Sequence record: OZ035817.1
Strand: one strand, 5' to 3'
DNA: 44,766 bases
DNA from: Vectrevirus DIJ06P1
Shown: positions 14,855 through 33,451 of the stretch, one piece after another
How the letters are laid out: every line of letters starts with the position of its first letter
Position numbering within the stretch: position 1 is the stretch's first letter
Program-made: the position numbers and the translations under genes
The notes under the pieces: generated by a model
The model's input: only the letters and a program-made list of their open reading frames with translations
Told to the model about the DNA's origin: nothing
Databases searched by the model: none

Positions 14855-14885
14855 GGCCATTCCTTCGGGGGTGGCCTTTCTTTTA
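14855..14885 (+). terminator. intrinsic terminator after the RNAP gene (early terminator analogue)
   Basis: GGCCAUUCC-UUCG-GGGGUGGCC hairpin with UUCG tetraloop, followed by UUUCUUUU. Confidence 0.65.
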
Positions 14886-14919: not shown

Positions 14920-14935
14920 GTCTCACACGTGAGAC
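14920..14935. repeat. palindrome GTCTCA-CACG-TGAGAC, copy a
   Basis: One of six copies of GTCTCA-N4-TGAGAC; abuts the promoter at 14938. Confidence 0.7.
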
Positions 14936-15100: not shown

Positions 15101-15116
15101 GTCTCACATGTGAGAC
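15101..15116. repeat. palindrome GTCTCA-CATG-TGAGAC, copy b
   Basis: Perfect 16-bp palindrome just before the promoter at 15122. Confidence 0.7.
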
Positions 15117-15302: not shown

Positions 15303-15521
15303 ATGGCTAAATACAGAATCAAGACCTGTTTAAATAGTCACGGGCAAGAGTTCTACGTAGTGCAACGTAAAGTATTAGGCTTAATATGGGTCACTTGTAT
15401 GATGCCTATTGGCTATACTGATACAGAGGCTATCTTCTGCACCGAAAGGGATGCAAAGAAGTTTATCTCTAAGCGTAGAAAAGCTGACTCTTACCAACCT
15501 AGAATTATTAAGGTGAACTAA
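15303..15521 (+). CDS. hypothetical protein
   Basis: 72-aa ORF; stop overlaps the primase-helicase start. Confidence 0.45.
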   Translation: MAKYRIKTCLNSHGQEFYVVQRKVLGLIWVTCMMPIGYTDTEAIFCTERDAKKFISKRRKADSYQPRIIKVN

Positions 15522-17509
15522 TGGCTATTATTAATAACATCCCGTGCCCTGCCTGCCAGAAGAATGGGCACGATAAATCCGGCAATCATCTCATGATATT
15601 TGATGATGGTGCTGGCTATTGTAACCGTGGTCACTTCCATGATAATGGGAAGCCCTATTACCATAAGCCAGAGGGTGGTATCGAGATAACCGAATTGCCT
15701 ATTACTGGCAATATCAAATATACACCTTCTCAATTCAAAGAAATGGAGAAGGAAGGGAAGATAAGCGACCCTAAGCTACGCGCCATCGCTCTTGGTGGTA
15801 TGCGTATGAAAGACCGTTGGGAGGTCATGAATGAGCAAGAAAGGGCAGAGCAAGAAGCAGAGTGGAAACTTGATGTTGAATGGTTCCTCACGCTTAAGCG
15901 TAAGAACCTTGTTTCCAGACACATTCGCGGCGACATTTGCGCATTGTATGATGTACGTGTTGGGCACGATGAAGAGGGTAGAGTCTCACGGCATTACTAT
16001 CCACGCTTCGAAAAAGGTGAGCTAGTAGGCGCTAAGTGTCGTACCTTACCTAAAGATTTCAAGTTTGGACACTTAGGTAAACTCTTTGGTATGCAAGATC
16101 TTTTCGGTATGAATATTTTGTCTCACGTGTTAGACAAGGGAAGACGAAAGGATTGCTTGCTTATTGTGGGTGGGGAACTGGATGCACTAGCAGCGCAGCA
16201 GATGCTCCTTGATTCTGCCAAGGGTACTAAGTGGGAAGGTCAACCTTACCATGTATGGTCTGTTAACAAAGGGGAGTCTTGCCTTGAAGAGATTGTGCAG
16301 AACCGTGAACACATCGCCCAATTCAAGAAGATTATTTGGGGCTTCGATGGGGATGAGGTAGGGCAGAAGCAGAACCAGCAAGCGGCTCGCCTGTTCCCTG
16401 GCAAATCCTATATCCTTGAATATCCCTCTGGTTGCAAAGATGCTAACAAGGCATTGATGGCTGGCAAGGCTAAAGAATTTGTAGATGCATGGTTTAATGC
16501 CAAGTCATCTGATGAAGTCTTTGGTAGCCAGATTAAATCTATCGCATCTCAAAGGGATAAGCTCAAGGCTGCACGTCCAGAGCAAGGACTATCATGGCCT
16601 TGGCCTAAGCTGAACAAGGTAACGCTAGGTATTCGTAAGAACCAGCTTATCATTGTAGGTGCAGGGTCTGGTGTAGGTAAGACTGAGTTCCTTCGTGAAG
16701 TAGTTAAGCACCTCATTGAAGAACACGGTGAATCTGTAGGCATCATTTCTACAGAAGACCCGATGGTCAAGGTGTCCCGTGCTTTTATCGGCAAGTGGAT
16801 TGATAAGCGTATTGAGTTACCGCCAACCAACGACCCGAAAGAAGACGGATACCGTGAGGTGTTCGACTACACCGAGGAAGAAGCTAACGCCGCCATTGAT
16901 TATGTAGCTGATACAGGTAAGCTGTTTGTAGCTGACCTAGAGGGTGACTATTCGATGGAAAAGGTAGAGCAAACTTGCCTAGAGTTTGAGGCTATGGGCA
17001 TTTCTAATATCATCATTGATAACTTAACGGGGATTAAATTAGATGAGCGTGCTTTTGGTGGGAAGGTTGGTGCACTTGATGAATGCGTCAAGCGGATTGG
17101 TACTATCAAAGACCGACACCCGGTTACTATATTCCTTGTATCACACCTTACACGTCCTCCGGCAAACCGTACCCAACACGAAGAAGGTGGCGAAGTTATC
17201 CTTTCTGACTTCCGAGGCTCAGGAGCTATCGGATTCTGGGCATCTTACGCCTTGGGGATTGAGCGTAATACAAGAGCTGAAACGCTTGACGAAAGGACTA
17301 CCACGTACATCTCATGTGTCAAAGACCGCGACCAAGGTATCTACACTGGAACCAAGGTCATGCTTAAGGGTGACATTCAAACCGGACGTTTAATGGAACC
17401 ACAAGCCCGTACTAAGTCATTTGATACAGGTGAAGCAAGGCAACAAGAAGTACCAGATTTACCGGACACTATAGAAGAGACTAACTTCGATGAAGAAAGT
17501 GAGTTCTGA
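15521..17509 (+). CDS. DNA primase/helicase (T7 gp4-like)
   Basis: N-terminal Zn finger CPACQ...CNRGH; Walker A GAGSGVGKTEF; acidic C-terminal tail ending DEESEF. Confidence 0.9.
   Translation: MAIINNIPCPACQKNGHDKSGNHLMIFDDGAGYCNRGHFHDNGKPYYHKPEGGIEITELPITGNIKYTPSQFKEMEKEGKISDPKLRAIALGGMRMKDRWEVMNEQERAEQEAEWKLDVEWFLTLKRKNLVSRHIRGDICALYDVRVGHDEEGRVSRHYYPRFEKGELVGAKCRTLPKDFKFGHLGKLFGMQDLFGMNILSHVLDKGRRKDCLLIVGGELDALAAQQMLLDSAKGTKWEGQPYHVWSVNKGESCLEEIVQNREHIAQFKKIIWGFDGDEVGQKQNQQAARLFPGKSYILEYPSGCKDANKALMAGKAKEFVDAWFNAKSSDEVFGSQIKSIASQRDKLKAARPEQGLSWPWPKLNKVTLGIRKNQLIIVGAGSGVGKTEFLREVVKHLIEEHGESVGIISTEDPMVKVSRAFIGKWIDKRIELPPTNDPKEDGYREVFDYTEEEANAAIDYVADTGKLFVADLEGDYSMEKVEQTCLEFEAMGISNIIIDNLTGIKLDERAFGGKVGALDECVKRIGTIKDRHPVTIFLVSHLTRPPANRTQHEEGGEVILSDFRGSGAIGFWASYALGIERNTRAETLDERTTTYISCVKDRDQGIYTGTKVMLKGDIQTGRLMEPQARTKSFDTGEARQQEVPDLPDTIEETNFDEESEF
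17457..17480 (+). promoter_or_regulatory. SP6-type phage RNAP promoter inside the 3' end of the primase-helicase gene
   Basis: ATTTACCGGACACTATAGAAGAGA, full consensus match. Confidence 0.6.
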
Positions 17510-17530: not shown

Positions 17531-17546
17531 GTCTCACATGTGAGAC
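17531..17546. repeat. palindrome GTCTCA-CATG-TGAGAC, copy c
   Basis: Flanks extend the stem (CTTGTCTCACATGTGAGACAGG); same extended sequence as copy f. Confidence 0.7.
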
Positions 17547-18674: not shown

Positions 18675-18690
18675 GTCTCACACGTGAGAC
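18675..18690. repeat. palindrome GTCTCA-CACG-TGAGAC, copy d
   Basis: Intergenic, upstream of the DNA polymerase gene. Confidence 0.7.
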
Positions 18691-18815
18691 AGCCTTTCAT
18701 CATATTGATTGGAGGTGCATTATGCCACGTGATTATGATTCTGATTGGGACTATTATGACTCAATGAATCCAAAACCCGAACGTTCAGATGATTACTACG
18801 AAACAGAGGCAATGT

Positions 18816-21362
18816 ATGAAGACTATTGATTGGAAGAAGGAGGCAGAAGGTCGTATCCTCGTGATGGATGCGGAAGCTAAAGGACTCCTTGACGCTATCC
18901 GATATAGACACCGTGAAGATGTGCATATCATTTGCTGCATGGATTTGCTTACTACCGAGGAGTTTCTCTTCTTTGACCCGTATGAGATGCGTGACCCTGA
19001 AGCAAGAGAACGCCTGAAGGAATGGGAAGGTCATCAAGATGGAACCTTGGTTGACGGTGTTAACTTCCTGAAGCACTGTGAGGCTATTGTGTCGCAGAAC
19101 TTCCTAGGGTATGACGGTCTTCTCTTTGAGAAAGCATTCCCTGATATTTGGAAAGGCTTTAACTATACCGAGAAGCGCGGTAAGGGCAGACTCCGTGCTG
19201 ACCTGTGTCCTATCCGTGTTGTAGATACGCTGGTGATGAGTCGTCTGCTAAACCCAGATAGACGCCTTCCTCCGCAAGCATATGCCAAAGGCATGGGTAA
19301 CGTCGCCCCTCACTCAATTGAGGCGCACGGCATCCGTATAGGCCGCTATAAACCAGAGAACGAGGACTGGTCTAAACTAACTGACCACATGGTTCACCGT
19401 GTACGTGAAGACGTGGCAATTGGTCGTGACCTTTTCCTATGGCTTTACAACGGAGAGTGGACGGAGCACAAACGCCGTGGCGTGAATAAACGTACTGGCC
19501 TAGGTATTGAGACAGCCTTCCACATGGAGTCCATTGTGGCGCTGGAGATGAGCCGTCAGGCCGAGCGCGGGTTCCGTCTGGACATCGACAAGGCTTTGGC
19601 CCGATGCGAAGAATTGGACGCTAAAATTGACGAGACAGTCGCAGCGTTCCGCCCTCACATGCCTATGCGTATCAAGTCTAAACCTTTTAAACCGGAAGAA
19701 AAGAATGAAGTATGCCAACGCGCAAATGAGTATGGAGTTAGCAACAATATACCTACTGTCCTTGACCCCTCACACTTTCTTCATGCCGAGAGACGAGGAG
19801 ATCGCAAGACAGTATGGAGTGTCACTACTAAGTCTGGTGATTGGTCGGCTAGTGTCAAGAAAGACTTCCCTCACCTTAGAGGAAACCGTAATGACACGCC
19901 AAGCATCAAGTGGATTGGCGCTTACTCGCCTGTTACTTTCGAAGAGATTCCCTTGGGTAACAGGGATACAGTTAAGCAAGTGCTCTATGATTATGGATGG
20001 AAAGGTGTTGAATTTAACGATACCGAGCAAGCTCATCTCGATGAACACGGAGTGTTACCCAAACCTTGGAGTGGTAAGATAAATGAAAAGTCCCTTACTT
20101 TATGGCAAGAAAGAGCCGCACGTGAAGGTAAAACAGTCCCTGATTGGTGCTTGGGTATCGCTGCATGGTACATACTCGTATCCCGTCGTGGTCAGATACT
20201 CAACCGTGGTGACGTTGAAGCCTTCAACGAGAAGGGAACGTGGCCCTCGCAGGCTGGTGTACGAAAGTGTCGCGGCCTTGTACCTGTAGCATTCAACAAG
20301 GAGCTAGGAATCAATGCGCAGCAATACTACGAGAGGTATGGATATTGGCCTACGTCTGACAAAGATGACGGGGAGTGGCGTGTTCCAGCTGTTGCTATTA
20401 GTATTGGCACTTCTACGTTCCGTATGCGTCATCGTAACGTGGTTAATATTCCTGCCCGTGGCTTGTATCCTTTACGTGATTTATTCATAGCAGGGAAAGG
20501 CAAGCTAATCCTTGGTTGTGACGGTGCAGGTCTTGAACTGCGTGTCCTGTCTCACTTCATGAATGACCCTGAGTACCAAGAGATTGTACTGCACGGTGAT
20601 ATTCATACGCATAACCAGATGAAGGCTGGTCTTCCTAAGCGTGATATGGCGAAGACGTTTATATACGCCTTCCTCTATGGCTCTGGTATAGCCAACCTTG
20701 CAGCAGTATGTGGTGTTACTGAGGCGGAAATGAAGGAAGTTGTGGCAAGATTCGAGATTGAACTGCCGTCTCTTGCACGTCTTCGTGAGAATGTTATCGC
20801 ACAAGGTAACAAGTTTGGCTACCTGCAAGCACCTGATGGGCATTGGGGTCGCATCCGCATGTCTGGTGGTGAACTTAAAGAGCACACGATGCTTAACGTA
20901 TTACTCCAGATGACTGGCTCTTTGTGTATGAAATATGCATTAGTAAAGGCATTTGCAGTAATGCGCAAGGAAGGTGTAGCCTTGGATGCTATGGGAAATC
21001 CTTGTGGTGTGGCTAACGTGCATGATGAAATCCAGATGGAAGTTCCTGAAGAGGAGGTCTTGTATCTTAACTACGACCTACCTTTCACCTTAGATGGGTT
21101 CGAAACAGAGAAGGCTGCCGTGAAAGCAGTGTTCGATGCAGAGGAGAAACGTGTTCATGTGGATTCTGAAGGACGTATGTGGTCTGCTGCAAACCTCGTC
21201 AGTGTTGATGCTGATGCTGGTGTATTGCATTGCCAGCGCCGTTATCACCGTGCAGGGCATATCATTGCCGACGCCATGATTTGGGCTGGTCAGTATCTGA
21301 AGATGCGTTGCCCGATGGCAGGAGAATATAAGATTGGCACAAGTTGGAAGGAAACACACTGA
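18816..21362 (+). CDS. DNA polymerase (T7 gp5-like, family A)
   Basis: ATG at 18816 after AGAGG (ORF-track start 18789 also possible); blocks GLELRVLSHF and KTFIYAFLYGSG match family A motifs A and B. Confidence 0.9.
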   Translation: MKTIDWKKEAEGRILVMDAEAKGLLDAIRYRHREDVHIICCMDLLTTEEFLFFDPYEMRDPEARERLKEWEGHQDGTLVDGVNFLKHCEAIVSQNFLGYDGLLFEKAFPDIWKGFNYTEKRGKGRLRADLCPIRVVDTLVMSRLLNPDRRLPPQAYAKGMGNVAPHSIEAHGIRIGRYKPENEDWSKLTDHMVHRVREDVAIGRDLFLWLYNGEWTEHKRRGVNKRTGLGIETAFHMESIVALEMSRQAERGFRLDIDKALARCEELDAKIDETVAAFRPHMPMRIKSKPFKPEEKNEVCQRANEYGVSNNIPTVLDPSHFLHAERRGDRKTVWSVTTKSGDWSASVKKDFPHLRGNRNDTPSIKWIGAYSPVTFEEIPLGNRDTVKQVLYDYGWKGVEFNDTEQAHLDEHGVLPKPWSGKINEKSLTLWQERAAREGKTVPDWCLGIAAWYILVSRRGQILNRGDVEAFNEKGTWPSQAGVRKCRGLVPVAFNKELGINAQQYYERYGYWPTSDKDDGEWRVPAVAISIGTSTFRMRHRNVVNIPARGLYPLRDLFIAGKGKLILGCDGAGLELRVLSHFMNDPEYQEIVLHGDIHTHNQMKAGLPKRDMAKTFIYAFLYGSGIANLAAVCGVTEAEMKEVVARFEIELPSLARLRENVIAQGNKFGYLQAPDGHWGRIRMSGGELKEHTMLNVLLQMTGSLCMKYALVKAFAVMRKEGVALDAMGNPCGVANVHDEIQMEVPEEEVLYLNYDLPFTLDGFETEKAAVKAVFDAEEKRVHVDSEGRMWSAANLVSVDADAGVLHCQRRYHRAGHIIADAMIWAGQYLKMRCPMAGEYKIGTSWKETH

Positions 21363-21633: not shown

Positions 21634-21894
21634 ATGATTAAATCACAGAAGTATTTCTCAACTAAAGATCGTAAGGTAGGTTTTGAAATCAAAGTTTGGG
21701 AAGACGGACACATTACTATTATTTACGAAGGTAAAGGTTCTAATGGTATGATGCTACGTAGATGCCGTACATTCACAAAGAAAGAATGTATGCATATGTC
21801 TGAATGCATGTTTCTTTACATCATTGCTGATGATATTAAAGGTATGAAGCTAATTGTATCTCTACCTTTAATACCTAAATCTTTGTTAGGTTGA
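21634..21894 (+). CDS. hypothetical protein
   Basis: 86-aa ORF, AT-rich. Confidence 0.45.
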   Translation: MIKSQKYFSTKDRKVGFEIKVWEDGHITIIYEGKGSNGMMLRRCRTFTKKECMHMSECMFLYIIADDIKGMKLIVSLPLIPKSLLG

Positions 21895-21918
21895 TTTACT
21901 GGACACTATAGAAGGAAA
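21894..21918 (+). promoter_or_regulatory. SP6-type phage RNAP promoter
   Basis: ATTTACTGGACACTATAGAAGGAAAG; followed by a TAGGT-repeat leader. Confidence 0.75.
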
Positions 21919-21980: not shown

Positions 21981-22358
21981 ATGTCAATGGTAACTACTCT
22001 GGTATTTGTAGCTCAATACTTTCGTGGTCTGGCTAATAAGTTCAAATCCAAGGCTATCAAAGCTATTGAGTCTCGCATCGAGGCAGTACAGGCAGAGCAA
22101 GTTAAAGTTGAAGAACATCGTAGTTCTCAAATGATTGACTGTCATAACCGCTACTATGCATCTCGTGATGAACTAAATGCACGTCAAGTCAAAGAGGTAG
22201 AAGATATGCTGGCACGTCACCAGCAAGAGCGTGACAGCCTGAAAGCTGAATTTGAAGAGAACAAGGCATCAATTGCTCTTGTAAATCAAGCTGCATCTGA
22301 CAGCCTGAAGAAAGAGATTGTTATGCTGGAAATAGAACTGGACAACTTGTCTAAATAA
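21981..22358 (+). CDS. hypothetical coiled-coil protein
   Basis: ATG after AGGAG; hydrophobic N-terminus then heptad-like charged region. Confidence 0.5.
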   Translation: MSMVTTLVFVAQYFRGLANKFKSKAIKAIESRIEAVQAEQVKVEEHRSSQMIDCHNRYYASRDELNARQVKEVEDMLARHQQERDSLKAEFEENKASIALVNQAASDSLKKEIVMLEIELDNLSK

Positions 22359-22364
22359 GGGGTT

Positions 22365-22664
22365 ATGATGGAAGAAGTGATTCAAGCTAAACATGTAGGT
22401 ATCATCTTTCGTGATCTAGAGCAGCGTAAAGTTGCAGGTCACACTCGTCTGGCTAAAGAATACGATACAGCAATCACTACTGTGGAACAAGCAGATGCCT
22501 ATCGTGGTCCAGAGTTTACTCAAGGTGAAACTTGTCATCAATTGAGCCTTTCACTTTGTGACACTATGGCTAGTGTAAATGTACAAGAGGTTGAAGATGG
22601 TGAATGTGTTAGTTATGTCTACCCTCTCGACACTATTGCACGTATTAAGGTAGTTCATAAGTAA
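22365..22664 (+). CDS. hypothetical protein
   Basis: 99-aa ORF. Confidence 0.5.
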   Translation: MMEEVIQAKHVGIIFRDLEQRKVAGHTRLAKEYDTAITTVEQADAYRGPEFTQGETCHQLSLSLCDTMASVNVQEVEDGECVSYVYPLDTIARIKVVHK

Positions 22665-22686
22665 TTACTGGACACTATAGAACAAT
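22664..22686 (+). promoter_or_regulatory. SP6-type phage RNAP promoter
   Basis: ATTACTGGACACTATAGAACAATAGG, overlapping the upstream stop codon. Confidence 0.7.
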
Positions 22687-22741: not shown

Positions 22742-23548
22742 ATGGCACGTGGTGATTTTGATTTTGGTGCTCAGGTTACTAAAGCTGAAGGTAAAGTATT
22801 TAAGAACCCTGAAGTTGGTGATCATGAAGCAGTAATCTCTGGCATCATTCATGTTGGTTCCTTCCAAGATATCTTTAAGAAAGGTAATACCACTGAAGTT
22901 AAGAAGCCAGCAAACTTTGTTCTTGTTAAGATTATCCTGATGGGTGACGACGATAAGAATGAAGATGATTCTCGCATGGAACAATGGATGGCTGTGCCTC
23001 TGAAGTCTGGTGATAAGGCAACACTGACTAAGTTCCTGAATGCAGTTGACCCTAAAGAGTTGCTGGGTGGCTTCGATGATTTTATCGGTGAATGTCTGAC
23101 TGCAACTATGGTTGGCTCTGGCGACAAGAATGATGATGGTACTTTCAAGTATGTTAACTGGAAAGGCTTTGGCGGTATGCCTGATAAGTTGAAGAAGCTT
23201 GTACTGGCTCAGGTAGAAGAGGAAGGTCTGTCTATGACAGGTCATATCACCTTCGACAAGCTGACCAAAGAAATCCTTGATGACATCCCAGCTAACTTGG
23301 TACGTCAATACTTCCTGAACGAGACACCTCGTGGTAAGAACCTGTCTGTTGCTGGCTCTCACGTAGAAGCTATTATCAAAGCTGCTCGTGAAGAAGACCC
23401 TGAATGGAAGAAGGCTAAGAAGAAAGACGAGGAAGATGCTACCCCAGCTAATCGTAAATCTCTGGATACTGGTGAGTCTGTTCCACAGGAAGTACCTGAA
23501 GCAGAAGATACTCCTGCACCGGAGATGGATGAGGACGCGGAATATTAA
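22742..23548 (+). CDS. acidic protein, possible ssDNA-binding protein
   Basis: ATG after AGGAG; 268 aa; acidic C-terminal tail ending EMDEDAEY, like the T7 gp2.5 tail; fold not verifiable by eye. Confidence 0.35.
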   Translation: MARGDFDFGAQVTKAEGKVFKNPEVGDHEAVISGIIHVGSFQDIFKKGNTTEVKKPANFVLVKIILMGDDDKNEDDSRMEQWMAVPLKSGDKATLTKFLNAVDPKELLGGFDDFIGECLTATMVGSGDKNDDGTFKYVNWKGFGGMPDKLKKLVLAQVEEEGLSMTGHITFDKLTKEILDDIPANLVRQYFLNETPRGKNLSVAGSHVEAIIKAAREEDPEWKKAKKKDEEDATPANRKSLDTGESVPQEVPEAEDTPAPEMDEDAEY

Positions 23549-23557: not shown

Positions 23558-23776
23558 ATGAAAGTACAAATCGTAACCCTGCACTGCAAGAAAGGAATTA
23601 CAACTCTTGGCGGCAACACTTTTCACTCCTTCTCTGAGGGGGGCACATATGCCGACCTGCACTACATCTGGCGCGACGGACAGCACGTGGTGAACTACAG
23701 CGACCCAGCTACGGGGAAACGCCACGGCGTATCGCTTCCGGCGCATGACATTGCTCAGGTGAACACAGTTTTATAA
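23558..23776 (+). CDS. hypothetical protein, GC-rich compositional outlier
   Basis: 72-aa ORF after AAGGAG; noticeably GC-richer with GCG/CGC/GGC codons unlike its neighbours. Confidence 0.45.
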   Translation: MKVQIVTLHCKKGITTLGGNTFHSFSEGGTYADLHYIWRDGQHVVNYSDPATGKRHGVSLPAHDIAQVNTVL

Positions 23777-23777
23777 A

Positions 23778-23793
23778 GTCTCACGTGTGAGAC
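23778..23793. repeat. palindrome GTCTCA-CGTG-TGAGAC, copy e
   Basis: Reverse-orientation version of copies a and d; 16 nt upstream of the promoter at 23809. Confidence 0.7.
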
Positions 23794-23808
23794 AAATCGG
23801 TGTCCGGT

Positions 23809-23832
23809 ATTTACTGGACACTATAGAAGAGA
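23809..23832 (+). promoter_or_regulatory. SP6-type phage RNAP promoter
   Basis: ATTTACTGGACACTATAGAAGAGAAG. Confidence 0.75.
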
Positions 23833-23881
23833 AGAATTTTAATCGGCGATAATGCCATAACCAACAAAAGGAGAATTTAAT

Positions 23882-24253
23882 ATGTTCAAGATTGAAACTA
23901 TCGTAAACCGTGTTGTTAAAGGTGCTGCTCTGGTATCCGTTGAGTCTTTCATTATCGTCGATGAAGCTGATCAACTGGTAGCTGGTACTAAGGCTTACGA
24001 TACCCGTGAAGAAGCTCAGGCTAAGATTGACAGCATGGGTAACTTCGCTGCTGGTCTGGAGTTCGCTCGTGCTTGCTTCCCTGAGCAGGCTGACAAAGCC
24101 CAGATCGGTAAGGCTAACATCGTAGCTGAATATCTGGATTGGATTGCTGCTGGTAAACCAGTGAAAGAAGTTAAAGCTGCTGAAGAAGCTGAAGCTCCGG
24201 CAGTAGAAGAAACCAAAGCAGAAGAAGTACTGTCTGCTGAAGAAGAATTTTAA
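23882..24253 (+). CDS. small acidic protein in a promoter-terminator cassette (function unknown)
   Basis: ATG after AAAGGAG; 123 aa; strongly biased codons; C-terminus ends SAEEEF; followed directly by a terminator. Confidence 0.6.
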   Translation: MFKIETIVNRVVKGAALVSVESFIIVDEADQLVAGTKAYDTREEAQAKIDSMGNFAAGLEFARACFPEQADKAQIGKANIVAEYLDWIAAGKPVKEVKAAEEAEAPAVEETKAEEVLSAEEEF

Positions 24254-24259
24254 TTGATG

Positions 24260-24293
24260 CCCTGTCTGCCTTAGTGTAGGCAGGGTCTTTTGC
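24260..24293 (+). terminator. intrinsic terminator
   Basis: CCCTGTCTGC - loop - GTAGGCAGGG followed by TCTTTTG; sequence-related to the terminator after the capsid gene. Confidence 0.6.
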
Positions 24294-24317
24294 GTAATAG
24301 TTATTGGAGAATGAATT

Positions 24318-24590
24318 ATGCCGACTATTGAATCTCGAATTACAATGGACATTAGCTACAATGCAATCACCAGACAATACATTGGGGTGGCCTATGATTA
24401 CAAAACTGGTGAGAAGCTAGTGGAGGTGAGACAATGGGATGACTATTGGTTAAGACAGAACCTCCATGATGCGGTGTCCTCCTTCTTGAAGGAGTGGCCT
24501 ACATGCGACCAAACTTCGACTTCGGAGCTACAGTATCGGAAGACAATAATCTCATCCTGTGGCCAACTGAAGGTAATAGAATCGCTTTAA
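24318..24590 (+). CDS. hypothetical protein (3' end overlaps exonuclease gene)
   Basis: ATG after GGAG; the last 88 nt overlap the exonuclease ORF in another frame. Confidence 0.3.
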   Translation: MPTIESRITMDISYNAITRQYIGVAYDYKTGEKLVEVRQWDDYWLRQNLHDAVSSFLKEWPTCDQTSTSELQYRKTIISSCGQLKVIESL

Positions 24591-25531
24591 TAGATGCTGA
24601 TATGCTACCCTACATCGTAGCTTATACAATCAGTGACATGACTTATGTGCGAGCCACAACTCGTGTTAAGTCAGGACAAGTCCCATCAATCAAAGATACA
24701 CCTGAGTGTAAGCAAGCGTGTGACCGTGTGAACTCCTTGCTTAACTCTTGGGTATACGCAGCAGAGTGCGATGCAGCTAAGTTATTCATGACGAAATCAG
24801 AAGCTAACTTCCGTGTTCGCCTAGCCTTCACCAAGCCTTATAAGGGTCAACGTAAGACCGAGAAGCCTCCGTTCTTCTGTGAATTGCGAGAGCATCTCTT
24901 AGAGGTTCATGGTGCAATCTTGGCAGATGGAGAAGAGGCTGATGACCTCATGAGCATTGCACAATGGGACAGCCACCGCCGCTTCCAGCAAGATACAGGT
25001 AACGAGTTCCCTATCGGTAGTCCAGAGCATAAAGCATTCTCTGATACTTGCATCGTTTCCTTAGATAAGGATTTGATGATTGTTCCCGGTTGGCATCTTC
25101 AGCCGGGTCAAGAGAAGAAATGGGTAGAGCCTATGGGTTGGCTTGAGTTACGCCGTAAGGCTAATGGTCAGGTTAAAGACCTTAAAGGTGCTGGCCTCAT
25201 GTTTCATTATGCACAGATGATTATCGGTGATGATATTGATAACTATGCTGGCATACCTGGACGTGGTGCTAAATACGCCTATGATCTTCTCAAAGATTGT
25301 AAGACAGAGAAAGAGTTGTACATGGCAGTGCTTGGTGCTTACAAGGCTAAGTTCGGACATGGACAAGTTAAGATTAAGAATTACCGAGGTGGTTATCGTA
25401 TCGGCAAGGCTTTTGACCTGATGCTCGAATGTGGTCGCCTAGCTCACATGGCAAGATTCAAAGGTGATATATGGCGAGCCGATAAGAACCCAATCTTGTG
25501 GGGAGATGATGCGGAATGGTTAGCAAATTAA
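24503..25531 (+). CDS. 5'-3' exonuclease (T7 gp6-like, FEN family)
   Basis: ATG at 24503 after GAAGGAG (GTG at 24494 possible); N-terminal IALIDADMLPYIVAY and central acidic clusters typical of FEN-type nucleases. Confidence 0.8.
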   Translation: MRPNFDFGATVSEDNNLILWPTEGNRIALIDADMLPYIVAYTISDMTYVRATTRVKSGQVPSIKDTPECKQACDRVNSLLNSWVYAAECDAAKLFMTKSEANFRVRLAFTKPYKGQRKTEKPPFFCELREHLLEVHGAILADGEEADDLMSIAQWDSHRRFQQDTGNEFPIGSPEHKAFSDTCIVSLDKDLMIVPGWHLQPGQEKKWVEPMGWLELRRKANGQVKDLKGAGLMFHYAQMIIGDDIDNYAGIPGRGAKYAYDLLKDCKTEKELYMAVLGAYKAKFGHGQVKIKNYRGGYRIGKAFDLMLECGRLAHMARFKGDIWRADKNPILWGDDAEWLAN

Positions 25532-27531: not shown

Positions 27532-27705
27532 ATGGAAGGTAAACTGTATAGAGGGTACTTCGGTAACTTATATAAAGTAAGCTCTCGCGGTTTTGTATTG
27601 ACCTCTGATGATGAAGGTGCAATGTGGCACATAAGTGCATATGGTTCTAACTTAGCACACTTTAAAGAGGCAATAGTCAAAGGTGTGATGAAGGAGGTGA
27701 AATGA
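27532..27705 (+). CDS. hypothetical small protein
   Basis: ATG at 27532; 57 aa; stop overlaps the ligase start. Confidence 0.35.
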   Translation: MEGKLYRGYFGNLYKVSSRGFVLTSDDEGAMWHISAYGSNLAHFKEAIVKGVMKEVK

Positions 27706-28649
27706 ACATCTTCCAATTCCTAGGTCTTCCAGAAGACCACCGCAATCATCCATTCATGCTGGTGAAGCATCGCGGTGAAGTTCCTGAGAAGAAACTTACT
27801 TTTCCATGTTATGCACAGGTGAAACGAGATGGAATATTCAGTGCTGTTGTGGTGCGCAATGATGGTGCTGTTGCCGTCTTTGGTCGTACTGGTAAGAAGC
27901 TCGCAAATGTTGAAGCCTTGGAAAAGACATTTAGTGTATTTCCTGTCGGGTTGTATCTTGGTGAGTTGCAATCTATGGCTGTTGATGTTTATCTTGAAGC
28001 TCTGTCAGGAGTGGTAAACCCTAATCGTACAGAGCCACTTAACTTCATAGGCCAGCAGATTAAAGACAACCTGTATATCGACTTCTTCGATATGTTAACT
28101 ATTAAGGCATTCCATGATGGATTCACTGATGTTTCTTATCTCAAACGTTACGATGCTTTACATCGTCGTATCGGCACTCATCTTAGCGGGTGCAACGCTA
28201 TCCTTCCTATCACTCCTTGCCATAATGAGCGAGAAGTTGAAGCGTTTGCGCAAGAGCAAATAGATGCAGGACGTGAGGGTGCCGTATTCAAACTGGACTG
28301 CGATTATGAAGCAGGACACAAAGGTTATCGTCAGACTAAAGAAGTCCGTAAGGTAACTTATGACCTTACTTGTATTGGCTTTGAAGAAGGTAAAGGTAAA
28401 TACAAAGGTAAGGTAGCTAACCTCATTTTCAAGTGGAAAGGGGGCAAGACAATCAAAGCTATGCTCGGTAAAGGGTGGACTCATGCAGATGCAGAACAGA
28501 TGTTCCACGACATTAAACATGGTGGACGATTGAATGTCATTGGTAAAATCTTTGAAGTCAAAGGTCTTCAGGATTCAAGCAAGGGCAACATTCGTCTGCC
28601 CAAAGCGGGAGAATTAAGACATGACAAAGATGAACCAGATTTCTTTTGA
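27702..28649 (+). CDS. ATP-dependent DNA ligase
   Basis: ATG after GAAGGAGG; adenylation motif KRDG in AQVKRDGIFSAVV; size about 315 aa. Confidence 0.8.
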   Translation: MNIFQFLGLPEDHRNHPFMLVKHRGEVPEKKLTFPCYAQVKRDGIFSAVVVRNDGAVAVFGRTGKKLANVEALEKTFSVFPVGLYLGELQSMAVDVYLEALSGVVNPNRTEPLNFIGQQIKDNLYIDFFDMLTIKAFHDGFTDVSYLKRYDALHRRIGTHLSGCNAILPITPCHNEREVEAFAQEQIDAGREGAVFKLDCDYEAGHKGYRQTKEVRKVTYDLTCIGFEEGKGKYKGKVANLIFKWKGGKTIKAMLGKGWTHADAEQMFHDIKHGGRLNVIGKIFEVKGLQDSSKGNIRLPKAGELRHDKDEPDFF

Positions 28650-29647: not shown

Positions 29648-31198
29648 ATGAAACAGAGCACAGATTTGGAGTATGGAGGTAAGCGGTCTAAGATACCTAA
29701 GCTATGGGAGAAGTTCTCCACTAAACGTAGCTCTTTCCTTGATAGGGCGAAGCATTACTCCAAATTAACCTTGCCCTATCTGATGAATGACAAAGGTGAT
29801 AACGAGACTTCGCAGAATGGATGGCAAGGTGTAGGTGCTCAGGCAACTAATCATCTAGCCAACAAGCTAGCGCAAGTACTATTCCCTGCACAGCGTTCCT
29901 TCTTCCGTGTAGACTTAACTGCACAAGGTGAGAAGGTTCTTAATCAGCGTGGCCTGAAGAAGACAGAGCTAGCTACCATCTTCGCTCAAGTGGAAACACG
30001 GGCAATGAAAGAGTTAGAGCAACGTCAATTCCGGCCTGCTGTAGTGGAAGCATTCAAGCATCTTATTGTTGCTGGTAGCTGTATACTATACAAGCCGAGC
30101 AAAGGTGCAATCAGTGCTATCCCAATGCATCACTACGTAGTTAACCGTGATACCAATGGCGACCTGTTAGACATTATCTTGCTACAAGAGAAAGCCTTAC
30201 GTACCTTTGACCCAGCTACACGTGCTGTAGTAGAGGTTGGCCTGAAAGGTAAGAAGTGCAAGGAAGATGACAGCGTTAAGCTGTACACACATGCTAAGTA
30301 TCTTGGTGATGGATTTTGGGAACTCAAGCAATCTGCTGATGATATTCCTGTAGGTAAGGTTAGTAAGATCAAATCAGAAAAGCTACCTTTCATCCCATTA
30401 ACTTGGAAGAGAAGCTATGGTGAGGATTGGGGTCGCCCTCTTGCAGAGGATTACTCAGGTGACTTATTCGTTATCCAATTCTTATCTGAAGCAGTTGCCC
30501 GTGGTGCTGCACTGATGGCAGATATTAAGTACCTGATTCGTCCGGGTGCTCAAACTGATGTTGACCACTTTGTTAACTCTGGCACTGGTGAAGTTGTCAC
30601 TGGTGTAGAAGAAGATATCCATATTGTACAGTTAGGTAAGTATGCAGACCTCACACCTATTAGCGCGGTTCTAGAGGTGTACACTCGCCGTATCGGTGTT
30701 GTCTTCATGATGGAGACAATGACACGCCGTGACGCCGAACGTGTTACTGCTGTAGAAATCCAGCGAGATGCGTTAGAGATTGAGCAGAACATGGGTGGGG
30801 TATACTCCCTCTTTGCTACTACTATGCAATCGCCAGTAGCGATGTGGGGTCTGCTGGAGGCAGGGGAGTCCTTCACTAGTGACTTAGTGGACCCTGTGAT
30901 TATCACAGGTATTGAAGCTTTAGGACGCATGGCTGAGTTGGATAAACTGGCTAACTTTGCTCAGTATATGTCACTGCCATTACAATGGCCTGAGCCTGTC
31001 CTAGCTGCTGTGAAATGGCCTGACTATATGGATTGGGTGCGTGGTCAAATCTCTGCTGAACTGCCGTTCCTTAAATCAGCTGAAGAGATGGCACAAGAAC
31101 AGGAAGCACAGATGCAAGCACAGCAAGCACAGATGCTTGAAGAAGGTGTGGCTAAGGCCGTGCCGGGTGTAATTCAACAAGAACTTAAGGAGGCGTAA
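29648..31198 (+). CDS. portal (head-to-tail connector) protein
   Basis: 516 aa; WQGVGAQATNHLANKLAQVLFP matches the conserved N-terminal block of T7 gp8 as I recall it. Confidence 0.9.
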   Translation: MKQSTDLEYGGKRSKIPKLWEKFSTKRSSFLDRAKHYSKLTLPYLMNDKGDNETSQNGWQGVGAQATNHLANKLAQVLFPAQRSFFRVDLTAQGEKVLNQRGLKKTELATIFAQVETRAMKELEQRQFRPAVVEAFKHLIVAGSCILYKPSKGAISAIPMHHYVVNRDTNGDLLDIILLQEKALRTFDPATRAVVEVGLKGKKCKEDDSVKLYTHAKYLGDGFWELKQSADDIPVGKVSKIKSEKLPFIPLTWKRSYGEDWGRPLAEDYSGDLFVIQFLSEAVARGAALMADIKYLIRPGAQTDVDHFVNSGTGEVVTGVEEDIHIVQLGKYADLTPISAVLEVYTRRIGVVFMMETMTRRDAERVTAVEIQRDALEIEQNMGGVYSLFATTMQSPVAMWGLLEAGESFTSDLVDPVIITGIEALGRMAELDKLANFAQYMSLPLQWPEPVLAAVKWPDYMDWVRGQISAELPFLKSAEEMAQEQEAQMQAQQAQMLEEGVAKAVPGVIQQELKEA

Positions 31199-32118
31199 TG
31201 TCTTTCTCATTTACTGAACCGTCAACCACTCACCCTACTGCTGAAGAGGGTCCGGTAGAAACCAAGGAGGTAACAACTGATGCTGCTACTACTGATACTC
31301 CTGCTGACGCTGGCACTGCTGTACAAGATGACAATGCTGGTGCACAACCTACTGAAGACACCGGAGGAGAAGCTTCTGGACAGCCTTCAGAAAAAGGAGA
31401 CAATGGCGGAGAGAATGGTGAACCTAAGCCAGATGATACCGCGACCGACACTGAGGAAGTGCAATACTTCTTCGGAGAACATGAAGTAACAGTAGACATC
31501 CCACAGGATGTAACTGACAGCCTTAAAGAGAAAGGCATTGATGCCAAGCAGGTTGCCAAGGAACTCTATTCCAAAGGTGGCAAGTTTGAACTGTCAGATG
31601 CAACCAAGCAGAAATTGTATGATGCTTTTGGCAAGTTTGCGGTAGATGCTTACCTGTCAGGTCTAAAGGCTCAAAATGAAGCCTTCTTCCTGAAAGAAGC
31701 CAACGCAGCTAAAGAGTTGGAAGCAGCTAACACCCAACGCTTCTCTGATGTTTCTAAGGAAATTGGTGGCGAAGAAGGTTGGTCCCGTCTTGAGGAGTGG
31801 GCACTTGAAGCGCTGTCTGATGACGAACTAATGGCATTCAATGCGGTGATGGAATCTGGCAACCAGTACCTCCAGCAGTACGCTGTGCGTGAACTGGAGA
31901 GCCGCCGTAAGGCTGCACAGGGTGATGATAAGCCATCCCTGATTGAGCCATCAGCACCTGCTAAGGTTAATGAAGAGAATGGCCCACTGACGCGAGATCA
32001 GTACGTTCAAGCAATCGCAACTCTTAGCCAGAAGTACGGCAATGACCGTAAAGCTATGGCAGAAGCTCAGGCTAAACTGGACGCCCGTCGCCGTGCTGGC
32101 ATGGCTCGCGGTATCTAA
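31198..32118 (+). CDS. capsid assembly scaffolding protein
   Basis: Acidic 306-aa protein between portal and capsid; ATG overlaps the portal stop. Confidence 0.7.
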   Translation: MSFSFTEPSTTHPTAEEGPVETKEVTTDAATTDTPADAGTAVQDDNAGAQPTEDTGGEASGQPSEKGDNGGENGEPKPDDTATDTEEVQYFFGEHEVTVDIPQDVTDSLKEKGIDAKQVAKELYSKGGKFELSDATKQKLYDAFGKFAVDAYLSGLKAQNEAFFLKEANAAKELEAANTQRFSDVSKEIGGEEGWSRLEEWALEALSDDELMAFNAVMESGNQYLQQYAVRELESRRKAAQGDDKPSLIEPSAPAKVNEENGPLTRDQYVQAIATLSQKYGNDRKAMAEAQAKLDARRRAGMARGI

Positions 32119-32124: not shown

Positions 32125-32148
32125 ATTTACCGGACACTATAGAAGGGA
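32125..32148 (+). promoter_or_regulatory. SP6-type phage RNAP promoter driving the capsid gene
   Basis: ATTTACCGGACACTATAGAAGGGAG, 50 nt upstream of the capsid start. Confidence 0.8.
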
Positions 32149-32197
32149 GAAAAGTTCTCCCTAGTTATCAATTTGATTTATAAGGAGATTATAATAC

Positions 32198-33409
32198 ATG
32201 TCTACACCGAATACTCTGACTAACGTTGCTGTATCTGCATCCGGTGAGGTTGACAGCCTTCTCATTGAGAAGTTTAATGGTAAGGTCAATGAGCAGTACC
32301 TGAAAGGTGAGAACATTCTGTCCTACTTTGATGTACAAACTGTTACTGGCACTAACACAGTGAGCAACAAATATTTGGGCGAAACTGAGTTGCAGGTGCT
32401 AGCACCGGGTCAGTCTCCTAATGCCACCCCTACTCAGGCAGATAAAAACCAGTTGGTAATTGATACCACTGTCATTGCTCGTAACACTGTGGCTCACATC
32501 CACGATGTACAAGGTGACATCGATAGCCTGAAACCAAAACTGGCTATGAACCAAGCCAAGCAACTGAAACGTCTGGAAGACCAGATGGCAATTCAGCAGA
32601 TGCTGTTAGGCGGTATTGCTAACACCAAGGCCAAACGTAACAAGCCGCGTGTTAAAGGGCATGGCTTCTCTATCAACGTTAACGTAACTGAGAGTGAAGC
32701 ACTGGCTAACCCTCAGTATGTTATGGCTGCGGTAGAGTATGCTCTGGAGCAACAGCTTGAGCAGGAAGTGGACATCTCTGATGTAGCTATCATGATGCCG
32801 TGGAAGTTCTTCAATGCTCTGCGTGATGCAGACCGAATTGTAGATAAGACTTACACTATCAGCCAGTCTGGTGCAACCATTAATGGCTTCGTTCTCTCTT
32901 CTTATAACTGCCCTGTGATCCCGTCTAACCGATTCCCTACCTTCGCTCAGAATCAGGCTCACCACCTGTTGTCTAATGAAGATAACGGCTATCGTTATGA
33001 CCCTATCGCAGAGATGAATGGTGCAGTTGCTGTTCTGTTCACTGCCGACGCACTGCTGGTGGGTCGTACCATTGAAGTGACTGGTGACATCTTCTATGAG
33101 AAGAAAGAGAAGACTTATTACATTGACACCTTCATGGCTGAGGGTGCAATCCCTGACCGTTGGGAAGCAGTGTCTGTAGTTACCACTAAACGTAATGCAA
33201 CTACTGGTGTTGCTGAAGGTTCTGGTGGTGATGATCACGCAACCGTACTGGCTCGTGCACAGCGTAAGGCTGTATATGTCAAAACCGAAGGTGCTGCGGC
33301 TGCATTCTCTGCTGCCCCAGCAGGTATCCAAGCGGAAGACCTTGTAGCGGCGGTACGTGCTGTAATGGCAAATGACATCAAGCCGACTGCAATGAAACCT
33401 GCTGAGTAA
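32198..33409 (+). CDS. major capsid protein
   Basis: 403 aa; own promoter upstream and terminator downstream; position between scaffold and tail tube genes. Confidence 0.85.
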   Translation: MSTPNTLTNVAVSASGEVDSLLIEKFNGKVNEQYLKGENILSYFDVQTVTGTNTVSNKYLGETELQVLAPGQSPNATPTQADKNQLVIDTTVIARNTVAHIHDVQGDIDSLKPKLAMNQAKQLKRLEDQMAIQQMLLGGIANTKAKRNKPRVKGHGFSINVNVTESEALANPQYVMAAVEYALEQQLEQEVDISDVAIMMPWKFFNALRDADRIVDKTYTISQSGATINGFVLSSYNCPVIPSNRFPTFAQNQAHHLLSNEDNGYRYDPIAEMNGAVAVLFTADALLVGRTIEVTGDIFYEKKEKTYYIDTFMAEGAIPDRWEAVSVVTTKRNATTGVAEGSGGDDHATVLARAQRKAVYVKTEGAAAAFSAAPAGIQAEDLVAAVRAVMANDIKPTAMKPAE

Positions 33410-33416
33410 TACCTAT

Positions 33417-33451
33417 GCCCTATCTACCTTGCGTAGGTAGGGTTCTTTTTG
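33417..33451 (+). terminator. intrinsic terminator after the capsid gene (T-phi analogue)
   Basis: CCCTATCTACC - loop - GTAGGTAGGG followed by TTCTTTTTG; 10-bp stem. Confidence 0.7.

What the first reader, a model, noticed from the sequence alone, without database searches (positions are those of the whole stretch)
23778..24293. Small acidic ORF boxed by a strong promoter and a capsid-type terminator
ORF 23882..24253 (123 aa, acidic, ends AEEEF) has a consensus promoter about 50 nt upstream, a strong RBS, strongly biased codon usage, and a terminator whose stem (CCCTGTCTGC/GTAGGCAGGG) is sequence-related to the one after the capsid gene (CCCTATCTACC/GTAGGTAGGG). That architecture is otherwise reserved for the capsid gene, implying very high expression of a protein I cannot assign.
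Basis: partly seen in the sequence, partly recalled or inferred. Interest (0 to 1): 0.7.

Follow-up and report, generated by a model that had tools for sequence, protein, structure and literature searches.

The report
Abundant acidic-tailed phage replication-module protein
Gene 18 of an SP6/K1E-type phage is a small, highly conserved gene of unknown function with its own strong promoter and terminator, and its protein ends in the same acidic, phenylalanine-tipped tail that phage T7's DNA-binding protein and helicase use to dock on the DNA polymerase, so it is probably an abundant, uncharacterised part of the DNA-replication machinery.

Summary
The window is a Vectrevirus (K1E/K1-5 group, SP6-like). 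ORF 23882-24253 is gene 18 (SP6 gene 20), annotated "hypothetical" in every record seen.

- **Expression signals:** its phage-RNAP promoter ties for best in the window. Its codon bias is the highest (Fop 0.80, capsid 0.67). Its terminator is the same type as the capsid terminator.
- **Conservation of the box:** promoter, terminator and top codon bias recur in relatives from two subfamilies. No expression data were found.
- **Protein:** a near-invariant 95-aa α/β core with no fold match, a variable Ala/Glu/Pro linker, and a conserved acidic tail ending in Phe.
- **Tail test:** in T7 the same tail criterion picks only gp2.5 and gp4, the known polymerase-docking tails. Here and in Vibrio phage AS51 it picks four proteins: helicase-primase, gp16, gp18 and ligase.
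- **Context:** no canonical SSB is detectable. gp16 and gp18 co-occur in about 212 phage genomes. The gp18 core is the most conserved protein segment versus SP6.

Best reading (confidence about 0.45, inferred): an abundant, SSB-like replisome accessory protein. A host-directed decoy is the main rival; a capsid or decoration role is unlikely. Function is unproven, interest moderate.

The parts
23778..23793 (+). Palindromic hairpin GTCTCACGTGTGAGAC, just after the gene 17 stop codon and 15 nt before the promoter
   Evidence: One of 6 exact copies (8 with near matches) in the window, against 0.05 expected. The same element sits just upstream of the orthologous promoter in Vibrio phage AS51. It folds as a 6-bp stem. 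Function unknown.
23809..23831 (+). Phage RNA-polymerase (SP6/K1-type) promoter, +1 at 23826
   Evidence: Exact 23-mer shared with 4334. Best leave-one-out PWM score of 13 sites, 38.2 bits.
23826..23881 (+). 56-nt 5' leader with RBS AAGGAG at 23868-23873, 8 nt from the ATG
   Evidence: Sequence read. Same SD hexamer as the capsid gene; duplex energy rank about 16 of 49.
23882..24166 (+). gp18 core domain (aa 1-95): beta-hairpin, short strands and three helices, carrying the conserved motif GKANxxAxYLxWxxxGKP
24167..24238 (+). Variable, low-complexity Ala/Glu/Pro/Val linker (aa 96-119), predicted disordered
   Evidence: Indels and substitutions within otherwise invariant homologues. pLDDT about 40-60. 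Tail net charge -9; family mean -7.5.
24239..24253 (+). Conserved C-terminal tip EEEF-COOH plus stop codon
   Evidence: EEEF in 120 of 120 close homologues. Terminal Phe in 18 of 26 diverse family members, and within the last 7 residues in 3 more.
24259..24291 (+). Intrinsic terminator: 11-pair stem GCCCTGTCTGC/GTAGGCAGGGT, 6-nt loop, then CTTTT
   Evidence: Top terminator hit. -18.3 kcal/mol, z = -3.6. Same class as the capsid terminator and the terminators after gp18 orthologues in other phages. No phage promoter follows until 26921.
21894..21916 (+). Upstream phage promoter (before gene 15) whose transcripts also end at the 24259 terminator
22663..22685 (+). Upstream phage promoter (before gene 16) whose transcripts also end at the 24259 terminator
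22742..23548 (+). Gene 16 (268 aa, unknown function, acidic tail ending DEDAEY); co-occurring partner gene of gene 18
   Evidence: Found in 215 phage records against 212 for gp18, with near-identical taxon counts (Pseudomonas 15 vs 12). The tail [DE][DE]xE[FY] is conserved. Fop 0.64, ENC 38.3. No family match.
15521..17509 (+). Primase-helicase with acidic tail ending FDEESEF, the same tail class as gp18
   Evidence: The AS51 orthologue ends DDTQEF.
27702..28649 (+). DNA ligase with acidic tail ending DEPDFF, the same tail class as gp18
   Evidence: The AS51 orthologue ends SEPDF. T7 ligase has no such tail.
32125..33448 (+). Comparison box: capsid promoter (32125-32147), major capsid gene (32198-33409) and terminator (33417-33443 plus T-run)

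Best explanation
Gene 18 encodes an abundant core protein of the phage's DNA replication/recombination module.

**Expression (shown at sequence level).** Three closely spaced phage promoters (21894, 22663 and the top-scoring 23809) all feed into one terminator at 24259. Gene 18, the last gene before it, is therefore covered by the most transcripts. It is also written in the most translation-optimised codons of the genome. The terminator attenuates transcription into genes 19-22 (exonuclease, endonuclease VII, phosphoesterase), which have no promoter of their own.

**Protein (shown).** A compact, near-invariant 95-aa core, a flexible acidic linker, and a conserved [D/E][D/E]x-Phe-COOH tip.

**Mechanism (inferred by analogy with T7 gp2.5 and gp4).** The tip docks in a basic pocket of a replisome hub, most likely the phage DNA polymerase or else gp16. 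Helicase-primase, gp16 and ligase carry the same kind of tail and would use the same site. gp18 would then act stoichiometrically as an SSB-like or hand-off factor at the fork, possibly covering part of the role that gp2.5 plays in T7. No gp2.5 or other recognisable SSB is encoded here.
For: **Tail anatomy**
- Core, variable linker and invariant EEEF.
- Terminal Phe is kept in 18 of 26 members at 23-72% identity although the linker is not conserved.

**Specificity of the tail criterion** (terminal aromatic plus at least 2 acidic residues in the preceding 5)
- In 35 T7 early/middle proteins it picks only gp2.5 and gp4. These tails dock on T7 DNA polymerase (PMC12339929; bioRxiv 10.64898/2026.02.22.705581).
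- In the window it picks helicase-primase, gp16, gp18 and ligase. The shuffle null has mean 0.59 and P(>=4) = 0.001.
- In Vibrio phage AS51, a different subfamily, it picks the same four orthologues and no other of 33 CDS.

**Conserved synteny:** DNA polymerase, gp16, gp18, exonuclease, endonuclease VII. A divergent marine homologue ending ADPF lies between an SF1 helicase and a Toprim primase.

**No SSB found:** no PHROG, Pfam or NCBIfam hit among early/middle proteins, and no gp2.5-like sequence in the window, SP6 or AS51.

**Core-gene behaviour**
- gp18 is present in all ~212 related genomes together with gp16.
- Its core is 94% identical to SP6, more than helicase (93), DNA polymerase (89) or capsid (85).

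**T7 parallel:** with the same Fop metric, the most biased T7 early/middle gene is gene 2.5 (0.69), which also has its own promoter 51 nt upstream.
Against: - No experiment or expression data exist for this family.
- The core is not an OB fold and matches no known DNA-binding fold.
- The core is slightly acidic (-3), not basic.
- The T7 'front basic patch' loop (K587-R599) is deleted in the window and AS51 polymerases, so the docking site cannot be transferred by alignment.
- The SP6 helicase ends ...QEFNG, so the tail code is not strict.
- An acidic tail ending in Phe could equally target a host protein.
- gp16 could not be identified either, so the division of labour between gp16 and gp18 is unknown.
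Confidence: 0.45

Rival explanations
1. Host-directed decoy or inhibitor. gp18 is made in bulk to titrate an abundant host protein such as RNA polymerase, a nucleoid protein, SSB-interacting enzymes or the ribosome. Its acidic Phe-ended tail would mimic ssDNA or a host SSB-type tip, as T7 does with gp2, gp5.5, gp5.9 and Ocr.
For: - It is small, acidic (pI 4.4) and apparently very highly expressed.
- It has no homology to replication proteins.
- It sits where T7 carries gp5.5, 5.7 and 5.9, between the polymerase and the exonuclease.
- Titrating an abundant target would explain the expression level.
Against: - The folded core is nearly neutral (mean -2.3 across the family), unlike DNA mimics.
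- An Ocr-like protein is already encoded in the early region, 10414-10788.
- The gene behaves as a core gene: present in all relatives, syntenic, and the most conserved segment versus SP6. Counter-defence genes are usually patchy and fast-evolving.
- The family spans hosts from Escherichia to Vibrio, Pseudomonas, Marinomonas and Shewanella with the same motifs.
- The tip is [D/E][D/E]xF as in T7 gp2.5 and gp4, not the D-I-P-F of bacterial SSB (own knowledge).
- No PADLOC hit.
Confidence: 0.25
2. Dedicated partner or regulator of gp16 rather than of the polymerase. gp16 and gp18 would form a two-protein unit, for example an annealing or ssDNA-binding protein plus an accessory or chaperone subunit, working with the downstream exonuclease in recombination-dependent replication.
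For: - Near-perfect co-occurrence: 215-216 versus 212 phage records with near-identical taxon counts.
- Same promoter-dense, codon-biased block ending at one terminator.
- Immediately upstream of the exonuclease and endonuclease VII genes.
- Both carry conserved acidic aromatic-ended tails.
Against: - gp16 has no detectable similarity to any SSB, annealase or other family, so this is context only.
- It does not explain why helicase and ligase share the tail type.
- It partly overlaps with the best explanation.
Confidence: 0.15
3. Structural, decoration or scaffolding protein needed in capsid-like amounts, hence the capsid-like promoter and terminator.
For: Only the capsid gene has the same promoter/terminator box. 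Scaffolding proteins are acidic.
Against: - The gene lies in the replication block, 8 kb upstream of the portal-scaffold-capsid module.
- No PHROG, Pfam or BFVD match to any virion protein.
- A separate scaffolding protein is encoded at 31198-32118 (SP6 annotation).
- The tail class is shared with helicase and ligase.
Confidence: 0.03

Closest known systems
T7 gp2.5 (ssDNA-binding and annealing protein)
   Same: - Middle gene with its own phage promoter about 50 nt upstream.
- Most codon-biased early/middle gene of its genome.
- Disordered acidic C-terminal tail ending in Phe, which docks on the DNA polymerase.
   Different: - gp2.5 is 232 aa with an OB fold. gp18 has a 95-aa non-OB core with no detectable sequence or fold similarity; hhalign probability 0.1.
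- T7 has no terminator after gene 2.5.
- ssDNA binding by gp18 is untested.
T7 gp4 helicase-primase C-terminal tail (…DTDF) and the polymerase basic-patch docking system
   Same: - Same tail class. The window's own helicase-primase ends …EESEF.
- Several replisome proteins would share one docking code.
   Different: - SP6-type phages appear to have four tail-bearing proteins (helicase, gp16, gp18, ligase) rather than two.
- The T7 front-basic-patch loop is absent from their polymerase.
Bacterial SSB C-terminal tip (…DDDIPF) on a disordered linker
   Same: Folded domain, low-complexity linker of variable length, and a conserved acidic tip with terminal Phe used as a protein-recruitment motif (own knowledge).
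   Different: - The tip is [D/E][D/E]xF, without Ile-Pro.
- The core is not an OB fold.
- The oligomeric state is unknown.
T7 phi10 - gene 10 - Tphi cassette (capsid high-expression unit)
   Same: Phage promoter, AAGGAG RBS, codon-optimised gene and stem-loop/U-run terminator that also attenuates downstream genes. The window has this for the capsid gene and, in a second copy, for gene 18.
   Different: - The second cassette lies in the replication region.
- It is fed by two extra upstream promoters.
- T7 has no equivalent middle-region terminator (own knowledge).
DUF1508 / UPF0339 (YegP-like) small beta-beta-alpha domains
   Same: - One database name for a close homologue reads 'DUF1508'.
   Different: - No Pfam PF07411 hit at E <= 1 for any of 26 members, and no PDB sequence hit.
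- The similarity is below significance.
- DUF1508 itself has no known function.

Membership tests
SP6/K1-type phage RNA-polymerase promoter | Conserved ~23-nt sequence (ATTTAnnnGACACTATAGAAGnn) recurring before phage genes | tested here: met
   Exact match to the window's best consensus. 7 sites at <=3 mismatches against 0 expected. Top PWM score, 38.2 bits.
Tphi-like intrinsic terminator | G+C-rich stem-loop followed by a T-run on the coding strand, downstream of a highly expressed gene | tested here: met
   11-pair stem, -18.3 kcal/mol, CTTTT. Same class after the capsid gene and after gp18 orthologues.
Tphi-like intrinsic terminator | Actually terminates the phage RNA polymerase | not testable with these tools
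   Needs in vitro transcription or 3'-end mapping.
T7-type acidic C-terminal docking tail (gp2.5/gp4 class) | Disordered, strongly acidic C-terminal segment | tested here: met
   aa 96-123 has net charge -9 and pLDDT 40-60. The linker carries indels among homologues.
T7-type acidic C-terminal docking tail (gp2.5/gp4 class) | Aromatic residue as the very last residue, conserved | tested here: met
   Phe in 120 of 120 close and 18 of 26 diverse homologues. The criterion picks only gp2.5 and gp4 in T7.
T7-type acidic C-terminal docking tail (gp2.5/gp4 class) | Binds a basic patch of the phage DNA polymerase | tested here: inconclusive
   Binding itself is not testable here. The T7 front-basic-patch loop is deleted in the window and AS51 polymerases, which carry different basic insertions.
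OB-fold SSB (T7 gp2.5-like / bacterial SSB) | OB-fold ssDNA-binding core, or sequence/profile similarity to gp2.5 or SSB families | tested here: not met
OB-fold SSB (T7 gp2.5-like / bacterial SSB) | Binds ssDNA | not testable with these tools
   Needs EMSA or similar. Conserved Lys (37, 72, 77, 92) and aromatic (23, 39, 61, 84, 87) positions are compatible but not diagnostic.
DNA-mimic anti-restriction / anti-defence proteins (Ocr, gp5.9, ArdA) | Folded surface densely negative, imitating the DNA backbone | tested here: not met
   Core net charge is -3 (family mean -2.3). The negative charge sits in the disordered tail.
DNA-mimic anti-restriction / anti-defence proteins (Ocr, gp5.9, ArdA) | Sequence or profile match to a known anti-defence or defence-related family | tested here: not met
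   No PADLOC, Pfam or PHROG match. The Ocr-like gene is elsewhere, at 10414-10788.
DUF1508 / UPF0339 (YegP) | Match to Pfam PF07411, or significant fold match | tested here: not met
Virion structural / decoration protein | Located in the structural module, or homologous to virion proteins | tested here: not met
   Lies between the DNA polymerase and exonuclease genes. No structural PHROG or BFVD match. Presence in virions is not testable here.

The most novel reading that the evidence does not exclude
gp18 (PHROG 4429) founds a new, non-OB class of phage replisome protein. It would be either the actual ssDNA-coating protein of SP6-, Erwinia- and Vibrio-type autographiviruses, or a polymerase hand-off or processivity factor. 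SP6-type replisomes would then use an expanded 'acidic tail ending in Phe' recruitment code, shared by helicase, gp16, gp18 and ligase, on a polymerase that lacks T7's basic-patch loop.
Probability: 0.2. Interest if true: 0.7.

Novelty: new variant of a known kind. Interest (0 to 1): 0.5.

Why it matters
SP6/K1E/K1-5-type phages are used for phage therapy against K1 E. coli, Salmonella and Klebsiella, and they supply the SP6 RNA polymerase. Their replication machinery has mostly been inferred from T7.

- **Open question made testable:** these phages, about 212 sequenced genomes in two subfamilies, encode no recognisable ssDNA-binding protein. They do carry two universally conserved, co-occurring unknowns, gp16 and gp18, in a high-expression block. 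gp18 appears to be the most strongly expressed non-structural gene.
- **If the tail docks on the polymerase:** the T7 model, in which several replisome proteins share one acidic-tail docking site, would extend to a four-client system with a different docking surface and a new protein fold.
- **Practical use:** the gene-18 box (promoter, leader, terminator) is a natural compact high-expression cassette for SP6/K1-type polymerases.
- **Engineering caution:** gene 18 is a candidate essential gene when phage genomes are minimised.

Tried and rejected
**Promoter type**
- Sigma-70 promoter rejected: no hit there; it is a phage-polymerase promoter.

**Family and homology searches on gp18, all negative**
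- Pfam, NCBIfam, PADLOC and PDB sequence search. PHROG 4429 is 'unknown function'.
- A profile search of 1.84 billion representative proteins gave only about 25 small homologues. The few large repetitive proteins I judged spurious.

**Structure**
- The first AF2 run with a shallow alignment was poor (pLDDT 60.6). The second, with the diverse alignment, was good (85.9).

**Profile comparisons**
- hhalign of the gp18 family against T7 gp2.5 and gp5.5, and of the gp16 family against gp2.5, gave nothing.

**gp16 identity, unresolved**
- PDB profile search, Pfam on 5 members, NCBIfam (one sub-threshold hit to a replication-initiation family, E = 0.0015), database names and tblastn annotations.

**Genomic context of distant homologues**
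- Six viral-contig scans and two metagenome scans gave one locus, L003. tblastn of P0152 in phages found nothing.

**Literature**
- Seven searches found no functional, transcriptomic or proteomic data for this gene. One search was badly designed and wasted. Dobbins et al. 2004 (PMC374404) is not held.

**Other**
- Rfam over the whole window: nothing.
- The 193-aa antisense ORF 23771-24352 I dismissed as a by-product of the GCT/GAA-rich coding strand.

Full report
**Identity of the window.** The region is 99.9% identical to Vectrevirus T205P4 and 96-98% identical to coliphages K1E and K1-5, which are SP6-like phages (Autographiviridae, Molineuxvirinae). ORF 23882-24253 is gene 18 of K1E (CAJ29426.1) and K1-5 (AAR90060.1), with no product name. 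It corresponds to gene 20 of SP6 in the Dobbins numbering. The window is circularly permuted relative to those records.

- *Promoter.* The "consensus promoter" is a phage RNA-polymerase promoter, ATTTACTGGACACTATAGAAGAG at 23809-23831.
  - Seven sites match with at most 3 mismatches, against none expected. About 13 match with looser criteria.
  - In a leave-one-out weight matrix this site ties for the best score (38.2 bits); the capsid promoter scores 36.6.
  - Transcription would start at 23826, 56 nt before the ATG.
- *RBS.* It is AAGGAG, 8 nt upstream, the same hexamer as the capsid gene's. By duplex energy it is only mid-upper rank.
- *Codon bias.* It is the strongest in the window: Fop 0.80 against 0.67 for the capsid gene. 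The bias is not an artefact of the Ala/Glu-rich tail, since the core alone scores 0.75.
- *Terminators.* The terminator at 24259-24291 and the one after the capsid gene (33417-33448) are the two best terminator hits.
  - Both have 11-pair stems and equal predicted stability.
  - Their 5' arms match at 9 of 11 positions, with one compensatory pair change.
- *Other terminator.* The only other strong terminator follows the RNA-polymerase gene (14854-14877).
- *Prior description.* A paper on the SP6-like phage UAB_Phi78 already lists terminators after the RNAP gene, after the capsid gene and after genes of unknown function, at the same positions as in SP6. It also lists the gene-18 orthologue as "Unknown" (PMC4837284). 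The layout has therefore been described but not interpreted.

**The box is part of a larger unit.**

- Promoters at 21894 (gene 15), 22663 (gene 16) and 23809 (gene 18) all precede the single terminator. No promoter-like site follows until 26921.
- Gene 18 is therefore covered by the most transcripts.
- Genes 19-22 (a small ORF, exonuclease, endonuclease VII, phosphoesterase) depend on read-through.
- Genes 15-18 form a codon-biased island, with ENC of about 35-40 for genes 15, 15.5, 16 and 18 (gene 17: 55.9) against about 50 for most other genes.
- This looks like a device that sets a high ratio of stoichiometric proteins to catalytic nucleases. That step is inference.

**The arrangement is conserved far beyond this phage.**

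- tblastn finds the protein in 212 of 50,697 phage records. All are 43-47 kb autographiviruses of Escherichia, Salmonella, Klebsiella, Proteus, Erwinia, Pectobacterium, Vibrio, Pseudomonas, Marinomonas, Aeromonas and Shewanella. In every row listed (60 of 212), annotated records call it "hypothetical" or "unknown function".
- Four relatives were examined: Erwinia phiEa1H, Klebsiella F4M1D, Vibrio AS51 and Pseudomonas Alpheus, from Molineuxvirinae and Colwellvirinae.
  - In each, the orthologue lies between a gp16-like gene and the exonuclease gene.
  - In each, it has a phage promoter just upstream and a strong hairpin/T-run downstream.
  - In each, it has the highest Fop in its locus; in AS51 it is the highest in the whole genome, above the capsid gene.
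- The optimal-codon set used is that of E. coli, so it is only a proxy for the other hosts.
- I found no transcriptomic or proteomic data.

**The protein.**

- Among 120 close homologues, residues 1-95 are almost invariant and residues 96-119 vary in sequence and length (Ala, Glu, Pro, Val). The last four residues are EEEF in all 120.
- A profile search of 1.84 billion representative proteins found only about 25 further small homologues, 23-72% identical. They share the motif GKANV(I/V)AxYLxWxxxGKP.
- In 18 of 26 diverse members the last residue is Phe, preceded by acidic residues. Three more have the Phe within the last seven residues.
- The core is nearly neutral (mean net charge -2.3), whereas the tail averages -7.5.
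- With the diverse alignment AlphaFold2 gives a confident core (mean pLDDT 85.9, core above 90). It has a beta-hairpin (3-13, 16-26), two short bridges and three helices (42-51, 55-65, 71-89), followed by a disordered tail.
- No significant structural neighbour exists.
  - Foldseek against PDB gave nothing below E = 0.25.
  - BFVD returned only a family member.

**The tail is the informative part.**

- In T7 the acidic C-terminal tail of gp2.5 anchors to the polymerase's front basic patch. A DTDF peptide mimicking the gp4 tail is seen bound in PDB 6P7E, and the C-terminal Phe of gp2.5 is essential (PMC12339929 and the references it cites; bioRxiv 10.64898/2026.02.22.705581).
- I applied a simple criterion: last residue aromatic, with at least two acidic residues among the preceding five.
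  - In 35 T7 early and middle proteins it selects only gp2.5 (…EDGDF) and gp4 (…NDTDF).
  - In the window it selects four of 49 ORFs: helicase-primase (…EESEF), gp16 (…EDAEY), gp18 (…AEEEF) and DNA ligase (…DEPDFF). The shuffle expectation is 0.59, with P(>=4) = 0.001.
  - In Vibrio phage AS51 it selects exactly the same four orthologues out of 33 CDS (…DDTQEF, …DEEQEF, …EDEEF, …SEPDF).
- gp18 therefore belongs to a conserved set of tail-bearing proteins. Two of the other members are known replication enzymes, and the third (gp16) is its constant neighbour.

**Supporting context.**

- None of the early or middle proteins matches any SSB family. T7 gp2.5 finds nothing in the window, SP6 or AS51.
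- gp16 and gp18 co-occur, in 215-216 and 212 records with near-identical taxon counts (Pseudomonas 15-16 vs 12).
- gp18 behaves as a core gene. Its core is 94% identical to SP6, the highest value of any ORF (helicase 93, polymerase 89, capsid 85). Against AS51 it is 48% identical, comparable to capsid and ligase.
- In T7, the same codon metric ranks gene 2.5 first among early and middle genes (0.69), and that gene also has its own promoter 51 nt upstream.
- A divergent marine homologue ending …ADPF lies between an SF1 helicase and a Toprim primase.

**What argues against a simple "it is the SSB".**

- The core is not an OB fold and is not basic.
- Profile comparisons with gp2.5 are negative.
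- The T7 basic-patch loop (K587-R599) is absent from the window and AS51 polymerases, which carry different insertions. The docking site is therefore unknown.
- gp16 (268 aa, similar in size to gp2.5, with its own conserved tail) could equally be the SSB.

**Rivals.**

- *Host-directed decoy.* It would explain the abundance, the acidity and the position analogous to T7 genes 5.5-5.9. It fits poorly with four points:
  - the neutral core;
  - core-gene conservation across very different hosts;
  - an Ocr-like gene elsewhere in the genome;
  - the T7-type rather than bacterial-SSB-type tip.
- *Dedicated gp16 partner.* This is compatible with the data and overlaps with the main explanation.
- *Structural or decoration protein.* The gene's location and the absence of any virion-protein similarity argue against it.

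**Verdict.** The most likely function is an abundant replisome or recombination accessory protein that docks through a gp2.5/gp4-type tail. This rests on analogy and context, and I put it at about 0.45. It is a new variant of a known kind: a known tail code and expression cassette attached to a new fold. It is of moderate interest and directly testable.

Noticed in passing
window 14920-14935, 15101-15116, 17531-17546, 18675-18690, 23778-23793, 40291-40306 (near copies at 9412 and 16120); L011 (Vibrio phage AS51) 2940, 4686, 6288, 6968, 9605, 14843, 18048, 25012, 41777: A palindromic hairpin, GTCTCA-N4/5-TGAGAC, recurs mostly between genes, often just 5' of a phage promoter or an RBS. It is conserved between E. 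coli and Vibrio phages of different subfamilies even though their promoters differ. There is no Rfam match. It may be an RNA processing or stability element, or a protein-binding site.
   Followed up: partly
window 22742-23548 (gene 16): A 268-aa protein found in the same ~215 phage genomes as gp18. It is codon-biased (Fop 0.64, ENC 38.3) and has a conserved acidic tail ending in Tyr or Phe. No family, fold or name is assigned anywhere. It is a candidate SSB or annealing protein of SP6-like phages.
   Followed up: partly
window 27702-28649 (DNA ligase); L011 19107-20105: The ligase of SP6-like and AS51-like phages ends in an acidic tail with terminal Phe (DEPDFF, SEPDF). T7 ligase has no such tail. 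This suggests ligase is recruited by the same tail code.
   Followed up: partly
window 18789-21362 (DNA polymerase): The T7 'front basic patch' loop (T7 residues ~575-595) is deleted in the window and AS51 polymerases. The region aligned to the T7 thioredoxin-binding domain is longer and differs in sequence.
   Followed up: partly
window 23558-23776 (gene 17): This 72-aa protein scores just above the Pfam gathering threshold for PF01307, Plant viral movement protein (23.8 vs 22.6 bits). It is probably a chance or compositional match.
   Followed up: no
window 24254-24258 versus L001/L002 4255-4315: K1E and K1-5 carry about 57 extra nucleotides between the gene-18 stop codon and the terminator that this window lacks. 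Some metagenomic relatives (L013, L014 at 5378-5815) have an HNH homing endonuclease, and Klebsiella phage F4M1D (L007) a 148-aa ORF of unknown function, just after gene 18.
   Followed up: no
window 23798-23831 and 4320-4356: Upstream of both exact-consensus promoters lies a short sequence complementary to the promoter core (GTGTCC…GGACAC, AGTGTC…GACACT). Read-through RNA could therefore fold the promoter region into a hairpin; 23770-23835 folds at -22.2 kcal/mol, z = -4.4. This may be chance.
   Followed up: no
window 10414-10788: An Ocr-like anti-restriction protein (PHROG 2568) ending in a run of seven Glu residues lies in the early region.
   Followed up: no
window 21981-22358 (gene 15): A coiled-coil protein with a hydrophobic N-terminus is labelled 'polysaccharide chain length determinant' by PHROG 7450 and NCBIfam (weak). 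It is codon-biased and is the first gene of the gene 15-18 high-expression block.
   Followed up: no
window 24318-24590 and 24494-25531: Gene 19 (90 aa, PHROG 'DNA repair protein') overlaps the start of the exonuclease ORF by about 90 nt in another frame. It is the first gene after the terminator.
   Followed up: no
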